Source: an uncultured Candidatus Saccharibacteria bacterium
GTDB taxonomy: Bacteria; Patescibacteriota; Saccharimonadia; UBA4664; CAZJNH01
DNA: 39,954 nt
Assembly: GCA_964547425.1 (NCBI GenBank)
Contig: CAZJNH010000001.1
Location: 71,295-111,248 of the forward strand
Direction: 5' to 3'
Both the position numbers and the translations under genes were made by a program. This document shows positions 3,157 to 39,623 of this stretch, piece by piece (position 1 is the first letter of the stretch; each line of letters begins with the position of its first letter). A model generated the notes under the pieces. That model had not been told where the DNA came from. It was given only the letters and a program-made list of their open reading frames with translations, and did not search any database.

Positions 3157-3933
3157 ATGGAAAAAAAATCCGAGGCTACTCCCCCACACTCTGCGCCCAA
3201 AACTCCTCAGCAAGAAGCTGAGGCTTTGCTTGAGGTGCTGACCCACCCTAAAACCGAGCAAGACGCCGAGGCCGCCGAAGCTCCGGAAACACCGGCCGCC
3301 AAAACTATGTCGGTCGTCGGCAGCACCGCCAAACTGCTGTTTAGCTGGCTGATCACCCCGGCCGCAATCGTGTTGGTCCTGCACTTTTTTGTCTTCCAGG
3401 CCTACCAGGTAGTTGGCAGCAGTATGGTGCCGACTTTACACAACTCCGACTACCTGATTATTTCCAAGGTCGGCCCTACCTTCTCTAAACTCCGCGGCGG
3501 AGCCTCCAAACACGCATACTTTATTCCGAAGCGCGGGGAGATCGCGGTGTTTATTGCTCCGCCCAGCCCAACCCAAACCTTCGTTAAGCGGGTAGTTGGC
3601 CTACCCGGTGACCGAGTGGTGGTTAAAGACGGCAAGATCACGGTCTACGACAAAGCCCACCCCGAGGGGATCAATCCCGACGCGACCCACCAGGTCAGCG
3701 ACCCGATCACCCTGGGCAATGACGATCTCGTGGTTCCGCCCGGAAATCTCTATGTGGTTGGAGACAACCGTATTCCCGGCGCGTCGTTTGACTCGCGGGA
3801 CTGGGGGCTTTTGCCGGCCGAGAACATCATTGGCGTCGCGATCCTGCGCCTGCTCCCTATCTCCGACCTCCGCTTACTGGATATCAGCTTACCGCTGCCA
3901 CCCTTTCTCAATAGCTTCGCCCAGCTTCCGTAA
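3157..3933 (+). CDS. lepB: Signal peptidase I
   Basis: GSSMVPTL (Ser), FVKRVVGLPGD (Lys), VGDNR, SFDSRDWG. Confidence 0.95.
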   Translation: MEKKSEATPPHSAPKTPQQEAEALLEVLTHPKTEQDAEAAEAPETPAAKTMSVVGSTAKLLFSWLITPAAIVLVLHFFVFQAYQVVGSSMVPTLHNSDYLIISKVGPTFSKLRGGASKHAYFIPKRGEIAVFIAPPSPTQTFVKRVVGLPGDRVVVKDGKITVYDKAHPEGINPDATHQVSDPITLGNDDLVVPPGNLYVVGDNRIPGASFDSRDWGLLPAENIIGVAILRLLPISDLRLLDISLPLPPFLNSFAQLP

Positions 3934-4791
3934 CTCTTCTTCGGTCTGGAAATGAATTACCAGCCTTCCGCCGGCGGCGGTCGGTACAGTTTTGACTTTG
4001 TGGCCAATCAGCCGGCTTAACTTCTTGGAGATTTCATCTTCACCCTTAAACCCGGCGATCCGCTTCAGTCCGCCGGCCGCGTCACCTTTAGCTTGCTTGA
4101 GTCCCCGGGCAAACTCCTCGATCTGCCGAACCGTCCAGCTGTGCTTTAAGGTCAACGCCATCGCTTCCAGCTGCTTGGTCGAGTCGCCAACCATCAAAAT
4201 TACTCTTGCATGGCCCTCGCTCAATTTACCGCCGGCCACCGCCGCTTTTACCTGATCCGGCAATTCAAGCAGTCTTAAACTATTGTTGATTGTTGAACGG
4301 TCGCGGCCGATCCGTCGGGCGATCTCAGGCAAACTCAAATTAAACTGGTCGGCCAGTTTGCGGTAGGCGGTAGCGGTTTCGATCGGGTTTAGTTCTTCCC
4401 GCTGTAAGTTTTCGATTAAGGCCAGTTCCAGCTTTTGCTGTTCATCAAAACTGCGGACAATAGCCGGCACGGTCGTTAAAGCAATTTGCTTAGAAGCCCG
4501 CAGCCGGCGCTCGCCGGCGATCAGCTGATAGCGGCTCCCCGATTTGGTCAGCACCAAAGGCTGCAAGATACCATGGATTTTGATTGAATCGGATAACGCG
4601 TCCAGTTGGCGTTGGTCAAAACTTTGACGCGGTTGCTGCGGATTGGGGTCGATCTTATCCGCATCGATTTGGATTATCTCTTCGCCCACCCTCTGGCCGG
4701 ACCTATTTTTTTTGGCGGAAGGGTCATAACGCAGCTCGACCATTTCGGTCGGAATAACAGACATTAGCCCATCCTCTAATCCTCTCGGCAT
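3889..4791 (-). CDS. parB: ParB/Spo0J chromosome partitioning protein
   Basis: PNPQQPRQSF, GILQPL, IAGERRLRA, ALIENLQRE, HTH, LSEGHAR. Start taken at ATG 4791. Confidence 0.93.
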   Translation of the reverse strand: MPRGLEDGLMSVIPTEMVELRYDPSAKKNRSGQRVGEEIIQIDADKIDPNPQQPRQSFDQRQLDALSDSIKIHGILQPLVLTKSGSRYQLIAGERRLRASKQIALTTVPAIVRSFDEQQKLELALIENLQREELNPIETATAYRKLADQFNLSLPEIARRIGRDRSTINNSLRLLELPDQVKAAVAGGKLSEGHARVILMVGDSTKQLEAMALTLKHSWTVRQIEEFARGLKQAKGDAAGGLKRIAGFKGEDEISKKLSRLIGHKVKTVPTAAGGRLVIHFQTEEELRKLGEAIEKGWQR

Positions 4792-4846
4792 AACCAAAAA
4801 ACTCCCTTTCAAGAGTTAGTTTAGCACCATCACGCTTGTGTTTGAA

Positions 4847-4883
4847 CAAAAGAAAAGAGCCAGACGCGTCTGCGCCTGACTCT
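4847..4883 (-). terminator. Intrinsic terminator
   Basis: AGAGUCAGGCGC-agac-GCGUCUGGCUCU followed by UUUCUUUU. Confidence 0.75.
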
Positions 4884-5229
4884 CTTGTGCCCGGATGGGT
4901 GCCCTTTCCGGAATGTGAATTCGAGCGGGCTCACTCGACGAAAAAACTGGACTCGATGCCGGGCCGCAAGAAGACGTATCCGTAAGGCTCCGGAACGTTC
5001 TTGATTCGGCACCGAGCCAGCGGAGCGGTTGCTGTGCTCAACGGGCCGCGGGCGCGGCTGCAACCGATCCTGAAGAACTGAGCGAGCCAACTTAGTTGTC
5101 CGCCCCGACTTACCAACAAGCGGCTCGCTCAATACTTTACGAAGTAGTCATCCACTTCTACTTCGTGCTTTTCAAATACTGGAGGGGGCCGAAGCCCCCT
5201 GCCAGGTGTTTCGGGTGTGGATGGGGTGC
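4847..5229 (-). ncRNA. Candidate large structured non-coding RNA, family unknown
   Basis: Seven consecutive stem-loops plus a terminator; G-U wobbles and a c(UUCG)g loop favour the minus strand; upstream promoter-like sequence; no ORF with recognisable signals. Confidence 0.55.
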
Positions 5230-5234
5230 AACAC

Positions 5235-5270
5235 AAAATACCAAACTTGACCGCTTCGGTCAATGTTTGG
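5235..5270 (-). promoter_or_regulatory. Hairpin after rplU containing a sigma70-like promoter
   Basis: Inverted repeat CCAAAC-a-TTGACCG-aag-CGGTCAA-GTTTGG; TTGACC-17 nt-TATTTT on the minus strand. Confidence 0.5.
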
Positions 5271-5576
5271 TTACTTGGCGATGGATGTGATTTTGATCTG
5301 TGAGTATTTCTGTCGGTGCCCGGTCAGCTTCTTGACCCGTTTCTTGGACTTGAACTTCATAATCTTAATCTTGTCGCCCTTGGCTTCGCCCAGAATATCG
5401 GCCTTAACCTTTACTCCCTCAACCATCGGTTTACCGACTTGGATTTTGTCGCCGTCAATTAAAAGCAGCGGCGCGAACTCGGCCTTGTCTTTGCCAAGGT
5501 TCAATAATTCCACGTTTAAGGTCTGGCCAGCTTCGACCAGATACTGTTTGCCGCCTGTTTGTATAACTGCTTTCAC
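5271..5576 (-). CDS. rplU: 50S ribosomal protein L21
   Basis: AVIQTGGKQY ... GHRQKYSQIKI; GTG start. Confidence 0.97.
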   Translation of the reverse strand: MKAVIQTGGKQYLVEAGQTLNVELLNLGKDKAEFAPLLLIDGDKIQVGKPMVEGVKVKADILGEAKGDKIKIMKFKSKKRVKKLTGHRQKYSQIKITSIAK

Positions 5577-5627: not shown

Positions 5628-5666
5628 AAAGAAAAGAGGCTGCGTGAATGGATATCACGCAGCCTC
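5628..5666 (-). terminator. Intrinsic terminator of ORFan pair
   Basis: 12-bp perfect stem GAGGCTGCGTGA/TCACGCAGCCTC plus U-tract; overlaps the stop codon. Confidence 0.7.
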
Positions 5667-5972
5667 CGGGACAAAGAATCCCTCGATGTCCGACAGCATT
5701 TCGTCGGTCAACGTCTGGAACATAGGTGGCATCGAGAGTGGTTTGTTGAAATCTATGTAGGACCACTCCACCGCCCGCTTGATCAATCGATCGAAGTCCC
5801 TTCGCCAATCGCCACTAGCGATCGCCAGGTTGCGCAGTGACCGCAACCACAGCCAACTCGCGAACTGATCGACACTCACCTCCGATACAGCCACCGGCAC
5901 CTGGTAGCACCAGATGTAGGCGTGCATCAGCTCAAGCGCCTCTCGCGCATGCCACGAGCGCCAACGTCTCAT
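5655..5972 (-). CDS. Hypothetical protein (105 aa)
   Basis: AGGAGG SD before ATG 5972; ends in a terminator. Confidence 0.65.
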   Translation of the reverse strand: MRRWRSWHAREALELMHAYIWCYQVPVAVSEVSVDQFASWLWLRSLRNLAIASGDWRRDFDRLIKRAVEWSYIDFNKPLSMPPMFQTLTDEMLSDIEGFFVPEAA

Positions 5973-5982
5973 CTCTCGCCTC

Positions 5983-6405
5983 CTAGGCAGCTCGACGCAG
6001 ATCGACAGGAACTCCTGTCCAATCAACGTACAGGTCTCGCGCCGCGTCACGCACTTCCCGGAGCAGTTCGATCCGCTCTTCGGTGTAGTGCGGACGGTGA
6101 TTCCCAGAAACCGTTCGGCGCGGGATTGCCAGCAACTCGGTGGTCACGACTCGACAGGTAGCAAATGTGCCGAACCGGATGTAGTGCAACCCATCGCAAG
6201 TCCGGCGCCAGTCGCAACCATACGCCAAGCAGTGCGTATGGAGAAACTCCCGACAGATGTATCTGTCCTCCCACCGCCAGTCGTAGTACAGTGCTTCGAA
6301 GGTCAGTACTGCCTTGATTCGCTTGAAACCACGTTCTACGGCGATTTCGGCGAACTCGTGCTCGCTGAACAGGTTCGACTCAACGTCGTACCACTCTTTG
6401 CCCAT
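5983..6405 (-). CDS. Hypothetical protein (140 aa)
   Basis: AAGGGG SD-like sequence; upstream promoter TTGCCA-17-TAGTAT; stop abuts the SD of the next ORF. Confidence 0.65.
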   Translation of the reverse strand: MGKEWYDVESNLFSEHEFAEIAVERGFKRIKAVLTFEALYYDWRWEDRYICREFLHTHCLAYGCDWRRTCDGLHYIRFGTFATCRVVTTELLAIPRRTVSGNHRPHYTEERIELLREVRDAARDLYVDWTGVPVDLRRAA

Positions 6406-10742: not shown

Positions 10743-11002
10743 GTCCGGTGCGCCAGGTAGCTGACTTCGGTGACCAGCGGCAGTTCGTCTTGCCATTTGG
10801 CAACCATACTGCCATCGAGGCGGACTAAAACCAAAGCCGGATGGCTCATAACGTCATAAAGATCGCGCTGGCCAATCCCCTCGCGGCTTTCGAATTCGAT
10901 CAGCTTGGTATCAACTTTATTAATCTCCAGCTCTCTCATAAACTCTTTAACTTTGCGCTCCTCCGGCCCGTTGTCCGGCGTATAAAAAACATAAGCAGTC
11001 AT
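10739..11002 (-). CDS. Hypothetical protein, possible thioredoxin-like fold without CxxC
   Basis: 87 aa; YDVMSHPALVLVRLDG resembles the thioredoxin cis-Pro strand; TATACT 7 nt before ATG; coupled to yggT. Confidence 0.7.
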   Translation of the reverse strand: MTAYVFYTPDNGPEERKVKEFMRELEINKVDTKLIEFESREGIGQRDLYDVMSHPALVLVRLDGSMVAKWQDELPLVTEVSYLAHRT

Positions 11003-11010
11003 ATCAGCCA

Positions 11011-11045
11011 GTATAAGGTATGAGGTATTTGGTATGAAGTATCTA
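11011..11045. repeat. Degenerate 7-nt tandem repeat, 5 units
   Basis: GTATAAG GTATGAG GTATTTG GTATGAA GTATCTA. Confidence 0.65.
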
Positions 11046-11053
11046 AACGCGAA

Positions 11054-11083
11054 GAGGGCCCGGTCTTCAAAGACCGGGCCCTC
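11054..11083 (-). terminator. 13-bp perfect inverted repeat after nrdJ
   Basis: GAGGGCCCGGTCT-tcaa-AGACCGGGCCCTC. Confidence 0.7.
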
Positions 11084-11089
11084 ACGCAC

Positions 11090-13426
11090 TTATTGCGTTG
11101 CTACTGCCCCGACGGCCTGCGGGATCTCGCAGGATTCGGTGCTGCAGTACTTCTCGCCGGCTGCATCCCAGGCTCCGGGATCGTCGTACAGACGGTCCCA
11201 ATCGACCGCCTTGACGTTGTCCCAGGCCTCCTGAAAGACCTCAGGTTCCACCCGCTGATATGGCATCTGCGGGTAAACGCCCTCTTGGTCCGGCAGGAAG
11301 GACAGGGACTTGAGCCTTCCGTCCATCGCACGGATGACCGCGGGGATCTCCTTGGCTTCGGTGACGAGGTTGAAGCTGGCCGTGACCGAGACGGAGTTGT
11401 CGCTCCACCAGGTCTGGCACTGCTCCGCCAAGTGCACCTTCTCCCAAACAGAGACCTCGCGCTCCGGCCGGATGTCCGGACCCTTCGTCGGGCAAGAGAT
11501 CACCACGCCGAACTCAGGATTCTGCACGTTGGGCTCGACGTGGTAGCCGGCTTCTTGCATCGCCTTGACCACGGGGTGACCTTCGGTCTCCCGCACGGTC
11601 CGGATGTACTGGCCGCGCTCCTTCGGCCAGTGGCAGCCCGGCGTGACGCCGAAGAGCAGACTGACCGTACCCGACGGCTTGATGGTCGTGACCTTGATCG
11701 ATTCACGCACACCGAGCCACTCCGAGTAGATCTTGTCCCAACGCCGGATCTCCTTGTAGCCGGCGTCCTGCCACTGCTTGAGCTCGTGCCACCCGTGCTG
11801 CTCGACGAACATGGCGAGACCCGTCATCGAGGTGCCGATCCGCCGGTTGCGGATCATAACCTCGTTGGTCTCCTTCCAGTGTGTCATGAGCAGCGTAACC
11901 GTCTTGCCGTAGAGATACCCGAACTTCAGCGTCCGCATGTAGTCCTCGAAGCTGCGGCAGTTGGTGGGATACGTCTCCACCAACGTGCACAGCTCGTTGT
12001 GCTCCAGCGGCTGCTCACCGCACGGGTTCACTCCGGCGACACGGTAGTCCCGGTTGTCCGGCGGGTCGGCCAGCCGGCCGAACTGCTGGCACATGTCGAG
12101 CCAGTAGATCCCCGGCTCGCCGCTGACGGCGTTGAGCTCGCCCAAGTGGTCGAGCTTGGTACCGACCGTGACGCTGGCCGAGTTGTTCGACGTGTAGCCC
12201 CAACCGCCGTCCGGGTGCATCAGCCAGTTACCCTTCGGGTCGTCCGGGTCGACCTGCGGGAGACCATCCGGTCCGGGAACGTATCCCAACCGAACCGCGT
12301 TGACGAACGGGTTCTTGAGGTTGAGGAAGTCCTCGTCGTTCGGATCTCCCAGCGCGATCTCCGCCGAACTGCGGACGTTGGCCGCCACGACGCACTTGCC
12401 CTCCATGTTCATCTGATCGACGATGTCGGTGGAGGTCAGCTTCTCGCCGCTGCGGTAGTTGTACTTCGCCCGCATCCGCTCGTGAAGCTGGATGAGCGGG
12501 TCTGGTCCAGCAGCAGTACCGCCAAAACCGTTGATCGGCGTGCCGCGCTCACGGATCTCACTGTAGTCGAACCTTACCTCCCGCTGATCGGGGAGCAGGT
12601 ACGACCTGAGCAGCATGCCCGTCGACTCGATCCAGCCTTCACGGCTGTCGTCGACCACGACCGGCTCGTCCTTGTTGCTCACCGGCTGGTGAAGGGTCAG
12701 CGCACCCGCGCCCTTGGTGTCGAAACCGACACCGACGCCGAGCATACTCATCTCCATCAGCCGCATGAACGGGAAGGCCGGGTCACCGTCGCCGATGAAC
12801 GCCGTCGACAAGAAACCGCAGTTCTGCAGAGCACTGGAGTTGTGCAGTCCGTTCACGAAGAACGTGCCCATCATCCAAAACCCTCGACCCGGCGGGCTCC
12901 ACTTACCGCTGAACAAGCGCTCGAAGGCTTCTTCCGCCGAAGTGTGAGCCGTCTCCTCGTCCCACGGCAGGTTGTAGTGCACGGCGTGGTCCTTCTGGAT
13001 CGAGTACTCACCTTCGATCAGTCGCCGGCACCCCTCCCAGTAGCGCTCCTTGGTGCCGTCGACCTTCTTGCGCGAGTACTTGGTGAGCCAGTTGTACTCG
13101 CCAAGTGTGTTGCCTGCGCCCATCGGGAAGCCCCACCTCGGGATTCGATCCTTGTACTGCTCGACGAACTCGTCCTTCAGCCGGTACGAGAGGTAGTAGA
13201 ACTCCTCGTCACGCTCTCGGCTCTCTCCAGCCTGCGCCCGTTCCTTCGCGAACAGATGCAGTCCCGGGAGGAACGTCTTCGACGGGTCTTTCTTGTCGGC
13301 CTCGCTCTTGGTGCTCGCCCAACCGCCGGCACGAATGCCGCGCTTGGACAAGACTCGCTTGGCCCGACGCTTCGATGCCCTGCCGTTCGGCTTGGCGTCG
13401 ACTGGTGTTTCCAGAACATCGGTCAT
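11090..13426 (-). CDS. nrdJ: Class II (adenosylcobalamin-dependent) ribonucleotide reductase, monomeric RTPR-like
   Basis: PPGRG, LQNC, GVGVGFD, NPCGEQPL..ELCTL, RRIGTSMTG, TTIKPSGTVS, C-terminal YCSTESC; no small subunit gene nearby. Confidence 0.9.
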   Translation of the reverse strand: MTDVLETPVDAKPNGRASKRRAKRVLSKRGIRAGGWASTKSEADKKDPSKTFLPGLHLFAKERAQAGESRERDEEFYYLSYRLKDEFVEQYKDRIPRWGFPMGAGNTLGEYNWLTKYSRKKVDGTKERYWEGCRRLIEGEYSIQKDHAVHYNLPWDEETAHTSAEEAFERLFSGKWSPPGRGFWMMGTFFVNGLHNSSALQNCGFLSTAFIGDGDPAFPFMRLMEMSMLGVGVGFDTKGAGALTLHQPVSNKDEPVVVDDSREGWIESTGMLLRSYLLPDQREVRFDYSEIRERGTPINGFGGTAAGPDPLIQLHERMRAKYNYRSGEKLTSTDIVDQMNMEGKCVVAANVRSSAEIALGDPNDEDFLNLKNPFVNAVRLGYVPGPDGLPQVDPDDPKGNWLMHPDGGWGYTSNNSASVTVGTKLDHLGELNAVSGEPGIYWLDMCQQFGRLADPPDNRDYRVAGVNPCGEQPLEHNELCTLVETYPTNCRSFEDYMRTLKFGYLYGKTVTLLMTHWKETNEVMIRNRRIGTSMTGLAMFVEQHGWHELKQWQDAGYKEIRRWDKIYSEWLGVRESIKVTTIKPSGTVSLLFGVTPGCHWPKERGQYIRTVRETEGHPVVKAMQEAGYHVEPNVQNPEFGVVISCPTKGPDIRPEREVSVWEKVHLAEQCQTWWSDNSVSVTASFNLVTEAKEIPAVIRAMDGRLKSLSFLPDQEGVYPQMPYQRVEPEVFQEAWDNVKAVDWDRLYDDPGAWDAAGEKYCSTESCEIPQAVGAVATQ

Positions 13427-38274: not shown

Positions 38275-38275
38275 C

Positions 38276-38962
38276 CTACTGCTCGTACCAACGAACCCGG
38301 TCAATAAGAACCGTGCCCGATAGAACCTTGGCTCGAAATTCAATTCCGTCGTTGATGCCTGCTAGTAACCAGTTGTACGGTTGATAGCTCACACCCGATG
38401 TACCACAGTAAAACGCCACCCCTCTACCGCTACGATGCACTTCGCTATTCAAGTCAAATACAAACTTCATCGTATTCCAGTCTGCTGCCGACGCAGAGTC
38501 GCAGGTGTAGGATTGTTTGTCCGCGGCTTCTGTCATGTCATTTTTGCCGTTAAAAGCTGAGACTTGAGTCCAAAACGAGCCTTTGCTTAAAAACTTGAAT
38601 CGAAACTCCACCACATATTTGTGCATGTGTCGGGTATTATAGTCATAACTAACGTTCCAGCTTAGATATGGACCAAACCAAGGCCAGTAATAAGGCCCCG
38701 TGTTGCTAGTAGCTTTATAAGCATAACCACCACTAGCACCCGATGCGCTGACCCGACTGCCACCGTGGTTGCAAACAATATGCCGTGAGGAGCAAGAGCT
38801 AGAGGTGCCACTTTCCTCGCCCCAAAAACTGGTGCTTGATGCAAGGCTTTGGTAGACAAAAAAGCCGCCGATGGCGGCGACCAACAATAACGTAATAATC
38901 GTGGCAGGTGATTTAAAGTTAATTTTTCGATTCAGAAGCTTGGTTTTTGATTTTCTGGGCAT
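38276..38962 (-). CDS. Hypothetical secreted or membrane-anchored protein
   Basis: Basic N-terminus + TM, Ser-rich linker, aromatic beta-rich domain; TTGACG-17-TATGCT upstream. Confidence 0.7.
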   Translation of the reverse strand: MPRKSKTKLLNRKINFKSPATIITLLLVAAIGGFFVYQSLASSTSFWGEESGTSSSCSSRHIVCNHGGSRVSASGASGGYAYKATSNTGPYYWPWFGPYLSWNVSYDYNTRHMHKYVVEFRFKFLSKGSFWTQVSAFNGKNDMTEAADKQSYTCDSASAADWNTMKFVFDLNSEVHRSGRGVAFYCGTSGVSYQPYNWLLAGINDGIEFRAKVLSGTVLIDRVRWYEQ

Positions 38963-39016
38963 GAATAAACCTGGACAAAGCATAAGCATTTTTCCCGGGT
39001 TCGTCAAATCAGACAA

Positions 39017-39046
39017 CTAAAAAAGACCCGCGGGGGTCTTTTTTAG
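39017..39046 (-). terminator. Intrinsic terminator, possibly bidirectional
   Basis: CTAAAAAAGACCC-gcgg-GGGTCTTTTTTAG. Confidence 0.8.
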
Positions 39047-39067
39047 AGTGAGTTAGAGTTATCTAAC

Positions 39068-39262
39068 TTAAGCAGCCTTTTTGCGGCGACTAGCCTGTCC
39101 GCCCTTCCGGCCTGCAACGCGTGCAAGTTCCGGGTTTTTGGCGAATCCGCCCCCTCGGCTAATGGAGCCGCCTTTGCGACCGATTCGCTCGTAGAAAGCC
39201 ACGCCGTAGCGCTGCTTGTTGGTGGTGGCAGCTTTAATGCCGCCAGTTTTGGTTCCGGCCAT
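39068..39262 (-). CDS. KGG-repeat general stress-type small protein
   Basis: FYERIGRKGG, ELARVAGRKGG; AGGAG SD before ATG 39262. Confidence 0.85.
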   Translation of the reverse strand: MAGTKTGGIKAATTNKQRYGVAFYERIGRKGGSISRGGGFAKNPELARVAGRKGGQASRRKKAA

Positions 39263-39401
39263 TTTTCGTCTCCTATTTAATTGCGTTAAAGCTATTCTGC
39301 CCGACAAGCAGAATAACCGCTTTGGCCATAATGCCAAAAAGCTTAAGTTAATTCACCGAAACTTTTGGCGACCGTCTCAGCCGCCTACTTGAGAGAGCAA
39401 C

Positions 39402-39430
39402 ATATTATAACAAAACACTAATGCTGTCAA
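39402..39430 (-). promoter_or_regulatory. sigma70 promoter of KGG gene
   Basis: TTGACA-17 nt-TAATAT. Confidence 0.7.
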
Positions 39431-39443
39431 TACCTTTTGTGCT

Positions 39444-39575
39444 TTATTTTTCGGGTGGTTTTGGCAGCTCGCGAGACTCTTCAGCGACTGTGTCCTCAGT
39501 CAATTCCTTGACCTCGGCTTCAGTCTCCTCCCGCTTAGCGTGCTCCCACTCCGGCCGATTCGTTTGATTCGTCAT
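39444..39575 (-). CDS. Small acidic hypothetical protein (43 aa)
   Basis: MTNQTNRPEWEHAKREETEAEVKELTEDTVAEESRELPKPPEK; TATAAT 7 nt before the ATG. Confidence 0.55.
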   Translation of the reverse strand: MTNQTNRPEWEHAKREETEAEVKELTEDTVAEESRELPKPPEK

Positions 39576-39595
39576 TACAGTAATTATAACGCAAC

Positions 39596-39623
39596 GAGGC
39601 CGGGGATGAATCTCCCCGGCCTC
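39596..39623 (-). terminator. 11-bp inverted repeat
   Basis: GAGGCCGGGGA/TCCCCGGCCTC directly after the stop codon. Confidence 0.6.

What the first reader, a model, noticed from the sequence alone, without database searches (positions are those of the whole stretch)
4847..5229. Unannotated, about 380-nt, highly structured RNA candidate between rplU and parB
Seen, reading the minus strand 5'->3': hairpin with c(UUCG)g loop (5179-5205); 9-bp stem (5139-5166); 10-bp stem UGAGCGAGCC/GGCUCGCUCA (5079-5131); stem CGGUUGC/GCAACCG with an inner hairpin (5026-5066); long bulged stem (4947-5020); hairpins at 4921-4938 and 4891-4911; then an intrinsic terminator (4847-4883). The loop GUGGAUG (5149-5155) is complementary to the upstream CAUCCAC (5217-5223), a possible 7-bp pseudoknot. 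G-U wobbles occur in the minus-strand reading. A TTGACC-17-TATTTT promoter sits just upstream. I see no RNase P (GAGGAAAGUCC), tmRNA (tRNA-like ends) or 6S (single rod) hallmarks. Inference: an independently transcribed large ncRNA of unrecognised family, the best candidate here for a new system.
Basis: partly seen in the sequence, partly recalled or inferred. Interest (0 to 1): 0.85.

Follow-up and report, generated by a model that had tools for sequence, protein, structure and literature searches.

The report
Orphan structured RNA downstream of rplU
A roughly 380-base gap between two housekeeping genes of a tiny-genome soil bacterium folds into a chain of unusually stable hairpins, keeps that shape in a sister species, matches no known RNA family and encodes no protein, so it is most likely a new, narrowly distributed non-coding RNA of unknown function.

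Summary
The fold is far better than shuffles (z -6.75). The gap ranks 1 of 120 among this genome's long non-coding gap-strands. A promoter-like site and a 15-bp intrinsic terminator flank it.

It matches no Rfam family. The genome's RNase P RNA and tmRNA lie elsewhere. The ORFs inside it score as non-coding and are not kept in the relative.

One same-genus genome (G001) has a homologue between rplU and parB. Seven to eight base pairs there changed on both sides and stayed paired, and the 8-nt apical loop of hairpin H5 is invariant.

Nothing credible was found in 150 other relatives, 80 ParB-anchored metagenome loci or a pattern scan of species genomes.

A co-occurring strain variant keeps H1, H2 and H5 but replaces H3 and H4.

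Verdict: a real, genus-restricted structured RNA element of an unrecognised family. Independent transcription and function are unproven, and the pseudoknot is not supported beyond chance. The genome holds several other comparably structured gaps.

The parts
5235..5263 (-). Sigma-70-like promoter TTGACC-17-TATTTT with TG before the -10. Its -35 lies inside a 7-bp hairpin (5247-5263) followed by a U-rich run, which also looks like the rplU terminator.
   Evidence: 9 of 12 matches; the hairpin is listed as terminator-like. G001 has the same layout at L002:1073-1107. Function is inferred, not shown.
5206..5229 (-). Predicted unpaired C/A-rich 5' leader. It contains CAUCCAC (5217-5223), which is complementary to the H2 loop.
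   Evidence: Centroid structure. Pseudoknot test: 107 of 2000 shuffles reach a 7-bp match. The strain variant differs here at 5208, 5211 and 5212.
5179..5205 (-). H1: 11-bp hairpin with one bulge and a C(UUCG)G tetraloop.
   Evidence: The four listed substitutions of the strain variant (5169, 5177, 5208, 5211) and its one-base insertion behind 5212 all fall outside this stem. Six further substitutions were not printed.
5139..5166 (-). H2: perfect 9-bp hairpin with the 10-nt loop AAGUGGAUGA.
   Evidence: (inverted repeat I3, 100% complementary).
5073..5137 (-). H3: 23-bp bulged hairpin. The outer stem UGAGCGAGCC/GGCUCGCUCA is conserved in G001.
   Evidence: helix 1 has 3 pairs changed on both sides. 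RNAalifold counts 2. H3 is replaced by other sequence in the strain variant.
5022..5070 (-). H4: GGA/UCC + CGGUUGC/GCAACCG stem with an inner 5-bp GCCC-loop hairpin. It is 49 nt here and about 21 nt in G001.
   Evidence: only the 5 basal pairs are shared and they do not vary. It is replaced in the strain variant.
4946..5021 (-). H5: 76-nt bulged rod, the conserved core. Invariant between the two species are the apical loop GAGCCUUA (4983-4990), GGUGCCGAA (5005-5013) and CUUCUUGCG (4965-4973).
   Evidence: 5 inner-stem pairs changed on both sides and 2 outer pairs changed G-U to G-C or A-U. The 57 nt at 4964-5020 are also kept in the strain variant, with one inserted base.
4921..4938 (-). H6: 7-bp hairpin with loop AGCC. 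G001 has a longer, non-alignable hairpin at this position.
4891..4911 (-). H7: CCGGA...UCCGG hairpin with an 11-nt loop. G001 has a CCGG...CCGG hairpin at the same relative place.
   Evidence: Centroid. G001 fold. The comparison is by my reading of those folds.
4843..4886 (-). Intrinsic terminator: 15-bp stem, 4-nt loop, then CUUUUCUUUUG.
   Evidence: The weak Rfam hits McaS and ctRNA fall only on this hairpin. G001 has a non-homologous terminator at L002:1658-1683.
4818..4846 (-). Probable own promoter of parB: TTCAAA-17-TAAACT preceded by TG. The block TGCTAAA(C/A)T is shared with G001 just upstream of its parB.
   Evidence: My reading. The scan tool did not report it (8 of 12 matches, below its threshold).
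5271..5576 (-). rplU (ribosomal protein L21), the upstream neighbour.
   Evidence: Pfam Ribosomal_L21p, E 6.4e-30. 84% amino-acid identity to G001.
3889..4812 (-). parB, the downstream neighbour.
   Evidence: Pfam HTH_ParB 4e-32 and ParB_N 3.7e-30. 58% amino-acid identity to G001.

Best explanation
This is a lineage-specific non-coding RNA gene of about 380 nt on the minus strand.

Proposed working:
- Transcription starts about 5227, from a sigma-70-type promoter that overlaps the rplU terminator hairpin.
- The RNA folds as it is made into a chain of local hairpins (H1-H7).
- It ends at a 15-bp intrinsic terminator (4853-4886), just upstream of parB's own promoter.
- The part under selection is the 76-nt bulged rod H5, with its invariant 8-nt apical loop GAGCCUUA and invariant internal-loop strands, together with the outer stem of H3.
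- The other hairpins are exchangeable modules that differ between species and even between co-occurring strains.

I infer that the RNA acts in trans as a stable scaffold whose H5 loop is read by a protein or RNA partner. I do not think it is a leader of parB.

Shown: structure well above chance, non-coding nature, strand, compensatory conservation, and absence from known families.
Inferred: the transcript ends, independent transcription and the trans-acting mode.
For: Structure:
- z -6.75 on the minus strand against -3.59 on the plus strand.
- 8 G-U pairs among the 113 pairs of the minus-strand centroid cannot form on the plus strand.
- Rank 1 of 120 gap-strands in the genome, above the RNase P gap.

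Signals:
- Promoter-like site and terminator in the window.
- The same terminator-overlapping-promoter layout after rplU in G001.

Non-coding:
- ORFs 4830-5132 and 4931-5119 have codon scores -14.5 and -0.6, against +65.4 for parB and +37.3 for rplU.
- Neither ORF has a Pfam hit.
- The G001 region carries 5-8 stops in each forward frame.

Conservation:
- A single-sequence covariance model of H3-H5 finds G001 at 54.3 bits, E 2e-13, in the syntenic rplU-parB spacer.
- 96.3% of cells are paired, and 8 of 63 pairs changed on both sides, against 0-2 when the partner is slid by 1-3 columns.
- An independent RNAalifold fold gives 49 pairs, 7 of them compensatory.
- The two species are far apart: ParB 58% amino-acid identity, parB DNA 68-73% where alignable. 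H5 at 73% with invariant loops is therefore as conserved as coding DNA.

Not a parB leader:
- In G001 a separate 457-nt unit with its own promoter (10 of 12 matches) and terminator lies between the RNA's terminator and parB.

Strain variant:
- It keeps 4964-5020 of H5 while H3/H4 are replaced.
Against: - No expression data of any kind. The promoter and terminator are consensus matches only.
- Only two species sequences. The alignment used for pair counts was fitted to the model's structure, which biases it towards pairing.
- With two sequences no statistical covariation test such as R-scape is possible.
- H1, H2, H6, H7 and the terminator are not alignable with G001, whose RNA would be about 575 nt. 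The 'family' therefore shares barely 180 nt.
- Module replacement between strains with an identical rplU could equally mean weak constraint on most of the RNA.
- No partner is identified. No extended complementarity to any other place in the genome was found (best hit 16 nt, E 0.05, inside a coding gene).
- The loop 8-mer and its complement occur at chance frequency in the genome: 22 observed, 21.5 expected.
- At least six other gaps in this genome fold nearly as well. High hairpin content may therefore be a general property of this lineage's spacers.
Confidence: 0.5

Rival explanations
1. It is the long 3' untranslated region of rplU, or an RNA processed from it. Transcription reads through the weak hairpin at 5247-5263. 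The hairpin array stabilises the rplU message against 3' exonucleases and insulates parB from the strong ribosomal-protein promoter.
For: - The element directly follows rplU in G000, in G001 and in the strain variant.
- The hairpin after the rplU stop has only a 7-bp stem, and the U run that follows it is interrupted.
- Most hairpins are exchangeable, as expected if only stability matters.
- In this window H5 is followed by UUUUUU.
Against: - Promoter-like sites with an extended -10 sit at the same place in both species.
- An invariant 8-nt loop and invariant internal-loop strands in H5 are not needed for mere stability.
- A cost of 380-575 nt is high in a 706-kb genome with about 90% coding density.
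Confidence: 0.22
2. It is a hairpin-rich spacer with no sequence-specific function. Stable local palindromes accumulate and turn over in this lineage's intergenic DNA, and the resemblance to G001 is residual common descent.
For: - Several other gaps of the same genome fold at z -6 to -7.7.
- The element is not found beyond the genus.
- H3/H4 are replaced in a strain whose rplU is identical.
Against: - Seven to eight double-sided compensatory changes, with 96% of cells still paired, between species whose parB DNA is only 68-73% identical.
- Perfect conservation of the unpaired loops.
- Strand asymmetry through G-U pairs.
- No other copy in the genome.
Confidence: 0.13
3. It is a cis-acting leader or attenuator that controls parB through its terminator.
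For: It lies upstream of parB on the same strand and ends in a strong terminator about 35-55 nt before the parB start.
Against: - In G001 a 457-nt unit with its own promoter and terminator separates the element from parB.
- A conserved extended -10 (TGCTAAAnT) lies between the terminator and parB in both species (my reading).
- I saw no alternative anti-terminator pairing in the fold.
- None of the 80 ParB-anchored metagenome loci has the element.
Confidence: 0.07
4. It is a DNA-level element: a replication origin, a ParB-binding centromere or another protein-binding palindrome array.
For: - It lies next to parB.
- The two arms of the proposed pseudoknot resemble inverted DnaA-box-like ATCCAC motifs. 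The consensus is recalled from memory, and the match is my reading.
Against: - dnaA is on another contig.
- GC skew shows no switch near 5 kb.
- No parS-like site within 3 mismatches in the whole window.
- The region is 58% G+C.
- G-U pairs favour RNA.
Confidence: 0.03
5. It is a diverged member of a known RNA family (RNase P, tmRNA, 6S, SRP RNA) or a small protein gene.
For: The size is similar to RNase P RNA and tmRNA. No 6S or SRP RNA was detected anywhere in the genome.
Against: - RNase P RNA (254.7 bits) and tmRNA (106.3 bits) are on contig C3.
- No Rfam hit at E <= 10 other than on the terminator.
- The genome has no Ffh/FtsY that could bind an SRP RNA.
- The fold is a chain of hairpins, not a rod.
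- Coding scores are negative.
Confidence: 0.03

Closest known systems
Orphan large structured bacterial ncRNAs (OLE, ROOL, GOLLD, raiA motif; names recalled, all curated in Rfam)
   Same: Large intergenic RNA with much conserved secondary structure, no coding capacity, restricted lineage and unknown biochemical function.
   Different: No Rfam model matches. Its known distribution is two species of one genus, not hundreds of genomes. The structure is a string of local hairpins, with no supported multi-helix junction or pseudoknot. Most modules are not conserved.
CsrB/RsmZ-type protein-sponge RNAs
   Same: About 370 nt, many successive hairpins, own promoter and intrinsic terminator; acts in trans by binding a protein.
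   Different: GGA motifs are not enriched: 6 observed against 6.2 +/- 2.1 in shuffles. No CsrA gene was found in the genome.
6S RNA / Ms1 (RNA-polymerase-binding RNAs)
   Same: Stable, highly structured housekeeping-type sRNA with its own transcription unit. No 6S was detected in this genome, so that niche is formally open.
   Different: No long rod with a central bubble. No RF00013 match in the region at E <= 10.
3'UTR-derived sRNAs and protective 3' hairpin arrays of ribosomal-protein operons
   Same: Sits immediately after a gene's stop codon and supplies the terminator at the end of the unit.
   Different: Much longer than typical examples. It has a conserved promoter-like site of its own and an invariant apical loop.

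Membership tests
Bacterial RNase P RNA (RF00010) | Match to the covariance model (P4 and the conserved core); one copy per genome. | tested here: not met
   No hit in the window. The genome's RNase P RNA is at G000:C3:25755-26128, 254.7 bits.
tmRNA (RF00023) | tRNA-like ends and a tag reading frame. | tested here: not met
   ARAGORN found 0 genes in the window. tmRNA is at G000:C3:42308-42650, 106.3 bits.
6S RNA (RF00013) | Single long rod with a central bubble; match to the model. | tested here: not met
   No match in the region at E <= 10 or in the genome. The centroid is a chain of eight separate hairpins, H1-H7 plus the terminator, scored as ten helices.
SRP RNA (RF00169, RF01854) | Helix-8 motif that binds the Ffh M domain; Ffh present. 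| tested here: not met
   No model hit in G000. PF02978 and PF00448 gave 0 hits in G000. No ORF carries both a DT[AS]GR motif and a P-loop.
CsrB/RsmZ sponge RNA | Many GGA motifs in hairpin loops; CsrA/RsmA encoded. | tested here: not met
   GGA 6 observed against 6.2 expected; 1236 of 2000 shuffles reach the observed count. PF02599 gave 0 hits in G000.
Cis-regulatory leader or riboswitch of parB | Element and regulated ORF in one transcript, with adjacency conserved across species. | tested here: not met
   G001 has a 457-nt unit with its own promoter and terminator between the element and parB. The element is absent from the 80 ParB-anchored loci.
MITE/REP-type repeated palindromic element | Several copies per genome. 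| tested here: not met
   nhmmer of the 458-nt gap against the whole genome finds only itself at E <= 1. The R1 model finds 1 match in G000.
Independent sRNA gene | Own promoter and own terminator. | tested here: met
   Consensus matches at 5263-5235 and 4886-4853, with the same layout in G001. These are pattern matches, not proof of function.
Independent sRNA gene | A discrete transcript with a primary 5' end. | not testable with these tools
   No RNA data could be laid on the region. See Tried and rejected.
Conserved structured RNA family (Rfam-type standard) | Statistically supported covariation across many homologues. | tested here: inconclusive
   Only 2 sequences are available. They give 8 of 63 pairs or 7 of 49 pairs with compensatory change, against 0-2 in slid controls. 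No formal test is possible.

The most novel reading that the evidence does not exclude
The element is one of a set of at least six unannotated, large, highly structured RNAs in a 706-kb reduced genome that appears to lack the SRP pathway. Its invariant H5 rod would be the binding core of a lineage-specific ribonucleoprotein. Its other hairpins would be swapped between strains as modules, which would be an unusual, cassette-like way for a bacterial ncRNA to evolve.
Probability: 0.15. Interest if true: 0.7.

Novelty: new member of a known kind. Interest (0 to 1): 0.45.

Why it matters
Very little is in print about non-coding RNAs of ultra-small, host-dependent bacteria. My four literature searches listed no paper on them, but I read no abstracts or full texts in depth.

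A 700-kb genome that spends 380-575 nt on a hairpin array and keeps one rod of it invariant across deep divergence is paying for something. If the RNA is expressed, H5 gives a defined bait for finding its partner.

The modular replacement of hairpins between strains would be a useful case for studying how new RNA structures arise.

The wider point is that this genome's best-folding gaps outscore its own RNase P RNA. That suggests a pool of unannotated RNAs in this lineage.

Tried and rejected
Homologue searches
- BLAST of the 441-nt region against 60 relatives found only G001, 73% identity over 84 nt.
- A ParB-anchored scan of metagenome contigs kept 80 loci, best 57% identity. blastn and nhmmer found no homologue in them. 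None has rplU next to parB: tblastn with L21 hit 1 of 90 loci, namely L002. Model R1 gave 0 matches at E <= 10.
- R1 over 151 genomes. The hits in G105 (20.6 bits) and G052 (13.5 bits) were rejected. The G105 hit lacks H5 and lies inside a 145-aa ORF.
- R2 over 41 genomes of the order. The G003 hit (21.3 bits) was rejected: the whole inner part of H5 is missing, and it overlaps a 410-aa ORF on the other strand.
- Gapped pattern scan of genome contigs: 22 hits in unrelated phyla, close to my rough expectation of about 30 chance hits. The best R1 score among them was 17.6 bits, with many non-pairs. The viral-contig scan gave 1 hit and no R1 match.

Expression
- No RNA holder was listed: 4 DNA runs from one soil study. 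Contigs cannot show expression.

Rival identities tested
- Trans targets: blastn-short against the genome gave nothing better than a 16-nt match (E 0.05), which lies inside a coding gene without a hairpin.
- Motif enrichment: none. A second GAGCCTTA in gap C4:39691-40812 sits in an unrelated context.
- parS, direct repeats, origin of replication and CsrA: all negative.
- The MAFFT alignments A1-A3 mis-aligned H3 and the inner H5 stem. I therefore built a single-sequence model from a self-alignment (A4) and re-aligned by structure (A5).

Literature
- For some searches I saw search listings only.
- In PMC11665869 a term search returned 0 occurrences.
- In PMC10633639 it returned 3 unrelated passages on 'intergenic'.
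- I found no paper describing this RNA or loss of SRP in this phylum. Absence from these listings is weak evidence.
- Supplements were not requested.

The related soil contigs seen could therefore not be fetched.

Full report
**What is there**

The region lies between rplU (5271-5576, Pfam Ribosomal_L21p, E 6e-30) and parB (3889-4812, HTH_ParB and ParB_N), all on the minus strand.

The ViennaRNA centroid reproduces them almost base for base:
- H1 5179-5205, UUCG loop
- H2 5139-5166
- H3 5073-5137
- H4 5022-5070
- H5 4946-5021
- H6 4921-4938
- H7 4891-4911
- a 15-bp terminator at 4853-4886

A TTGACC-17-TATTTT promoter-like site with an extended -10 lies at 5263-5235. Its -35 sits inside a small hairpin that also looks like the rplU terminator.

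**Is it more than chance?**

- Minus-strand MFE is -172.6 kcal/mol, z -6.75 against 100 dinucleotide shuffles, none as good. The plus strand gives z -3.59.
- Eight of the 113 centroid pairs are G-U and cannot form on the plus strand.
- I folded 1033 windows of 383 nt on both strands of contigs C1 and C3. After correcting for G+C, the candidate lies 2.7 sd below the mean. RNase P RNA lies 1.4 sd below and tmRNA 0.9 sd below.
- A crude codon-usage gene finder called 733 genes, 90% coding, and 98 gaps of 200 nt or more. Among the 60 gaps of 250-720 nt, each strand folded against 12 shuffles, the candidate gap on its minus strand ranks 1 of 120 (z -7.9).
- It is not alone, though. Six other gaps reach z of about -6 to -7.7 on at least one strand. 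The RNase P gap is at -4.9.

**What it is not**

- Rfam 15 gives no gathering-level hit in the 40-kb window. At E <= 10 it gives only chance matches (McaS, ctRNA) on the terminator hairpin.
- ARAGORN finds nothing.
- The genome's RNase P RNA and tmRNA are on contig C3.
- 6S and both bacterial SRP RNA models find nothing in the genome. The genome also lacks the SRP54 GTPase and Ffh M domains, so an SRP RNA reading has no protein partner.
- No CsrA is encoded, and GGA motifs are at chance frequency.
- It is not repeated in the genome.
- It is not an origin or centromere: dnaA is on C9, there is no skew switch and there is no parS.
The homologous G001 stretch has 5-8 stops in each frame.

**Relatives**

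DNA search of 60 relatives found only G001, the other species of the genus in the collection. There the rplU-parB spacer is 1091 nt and folds with z -10.

MAFFT mis-aligned the stems. I therefore built a covariance model from the window's H3-H5 alone (R1). It finds G001 at 54.3 bits, E 2e-13.

On the resulting alignment:
- 96.3% of cells pair.
- 8 of 63 pairs changed on both sides: 3 in the H3 outer stem and 5 in the H5 inner stem.
- Slid controls give 0-2 such pairs.
- RNAalifold, folding the alignment on its own, gives 49 pairs with 7 compensatory.
- The apical loop GAGCCUUA and the strands GGUGCCGAA and CUUCUUGCG are identical in both species.

This holds although ParB is only 58% identical in protein and parB DNA is 68-73% identical where alignable.

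Caveats: there are two sequences only, the alignment was fitted to the model, and H1, H2, H6, H7 and the terminator are not alignable.

Beyond the genus nothing credible appeared:
- R1 on 151 genomes and R2 on 41 gave only low-scoring hits that lack H5 and lie in ORFs.
- 80 ParB-anchored metagenome loci gave nothing.
- A gapped H5 pattern over all species genomes returned 22 hits in unrelated phyla, about the chance number, none with the structure.

**Strain-level variation**

Four DNA runs from one soil study hold the sequence. Laying their contigs showed a second haplotype.
- In X3 a 1168-nt contig covers 5139-5800 with 10 substitutions and 1 insertion in all. The 254-nt variant contigs of the other three runs show the same count within 5139-5242, so rplU is probably identical.
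- The five changes that were printed all lie outside the H1 stem.
- The variant joins 5139 to 5020, skipping H3 and H4. From the contig lengths, about 92 other letters stand in place of those 118. That is my inference.
- It then matches 4964-5020 of H5 with one inserted base.

H5 is therefore kept in all three versions, and the other hairpins behave as replaceable modules. Contigs of more distant relatives (rplU with 29-50 differences in 224-283 nt) also occur in these runs, but could not be fetched.

**How it most likely works**

The promoter-like site overlapping the rplU terminator recurs in G001.

In G001 a separate 457-nt unit lies between the element's terminator and parB. It has its own promoter (10 of 12 matches) and terminator and folds at z -5.1.

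In both species a TGCTAAAnT extended -10 precedes parB. This is my reading; the scan tool did not call it.

This argues for an independent RNA gene rather than a parB leader. A 3' UTR of rplU remains a serious rival, because nothing here shows a primary 5' end.

The invariant loops of H5, in a rod whose stems co-vary, point to recognition by a partner. No partner RNA is suggested by complementarity, so I favour a protein ligand. That step is inference only.

**The pseudoknot**

The 7-nt complementarity is real. However, about 5% of shuffles of the unpaired bases produce one (107 of 2000), and G001 offers no test. It is unsupported, not refuted.

**Verdict**

This is a genuine, genus-restricted structured RNA element of no known family. 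It is the best-folding gap in its genome, with limited but consistent compensatory evidence. Transcription, boundaries and function remain open.

I rate it a new member of the broad kind 'lineage-specific structured bacterial ncRNA', with moderate interest.

Noticed in passing
whole genome G000 and relatives (not in the window): The SRP pathway appears to be missing.
- In G000: no SRP54 GTPase domain (PF00448), no Ffh M domain (PF02978), no ORF with both a DT[AS]GR motif and a P-loop, and no SRP RNA.
- PF00448 gave only marginal hits limited to the P-loop end of the domain in 6 of 41 genomes of the order (4 nominally at the cut-off, at most 24.5 bits). In a phylum-wide sample 0 of 61 were over the cut-off.
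- RF00169 was found in 0 of 61 relatives.
- Controls rang in 14 of 14 genomes for the proteins.
- I found no paper stating this in the listings.
- It needs an independent check before it is believed.
   Followed up: partly
G000:C1:5454-6065 (L106:55-666, minus); C3:20531-20910 (L105:332-711); C1:47253-47671 (L104); C1:67220-67767; C1:68035-68485; C5:58548-58942: Other long gaps of the same genome fold almost as far above shuffles as the candidate (z about -6 to -7.7). The five that were scanned (all but C5:58548-58942, which was not sent to Rfam) have no Rfam gathering hit. The first two are conserved in G001: 78% over 266 nt and 73% over 190 nt. They may be further unannotated RNAs.
   Followed up: partly
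L002:1692-2148 (G001): Between the element's terminator and parB, G001 carries a second unit that G000 lacks.
- It has a TTGACA-17-TAGTAT promoter and an 11-bp terminator.
- About 370 nt fold at z -5.1.
- It contains a GGGUUCGACUCCC stretch that looks like a tRNA T-arm.
- ARAGORN found nothing, and no tRNA or tmRNA family matched at E <= 1.
   Followed up: partly
window 4964-5242, seen in runs X1-X4: A co-occurring haplotype with probably the same rplU has about 10% divergence in the RNA's first 100 nt. It replaces H3/H4 with other sequence and keeps H5. The assembly graph breaks at 4965-4986 and 5227-5242.
   Followed up: partly
window 5655-6050 and 5983-6405 (minus): Two overlapping hypothetical ORFs upstream of rplU have no Pfam match. 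The first has a 47%-identical counterpart at the same place in G001, so it is probably a real lineage-specific gene. My crude gene finder did not call it.
   Followed up: partly
window 11001-13000: G+C rises to 0.61-0.64 against about 0.53 elsewhere in the window.
   Followed up: no
window 38275-39622 (G000:C1:109569-110916): A 1348-nt stretch in which my crude codon-usage gene finder called no gene. It has no Rfam hit and was not examined further.
   Followed up: no
G000:C1:34754 (outside the window): rpmA (L27) lies about 41 kb from rplU rather than next to it. The usual rplU-rpmA linkage, which I recall from memory, is therefore broken in this genome.
   Followed up: no
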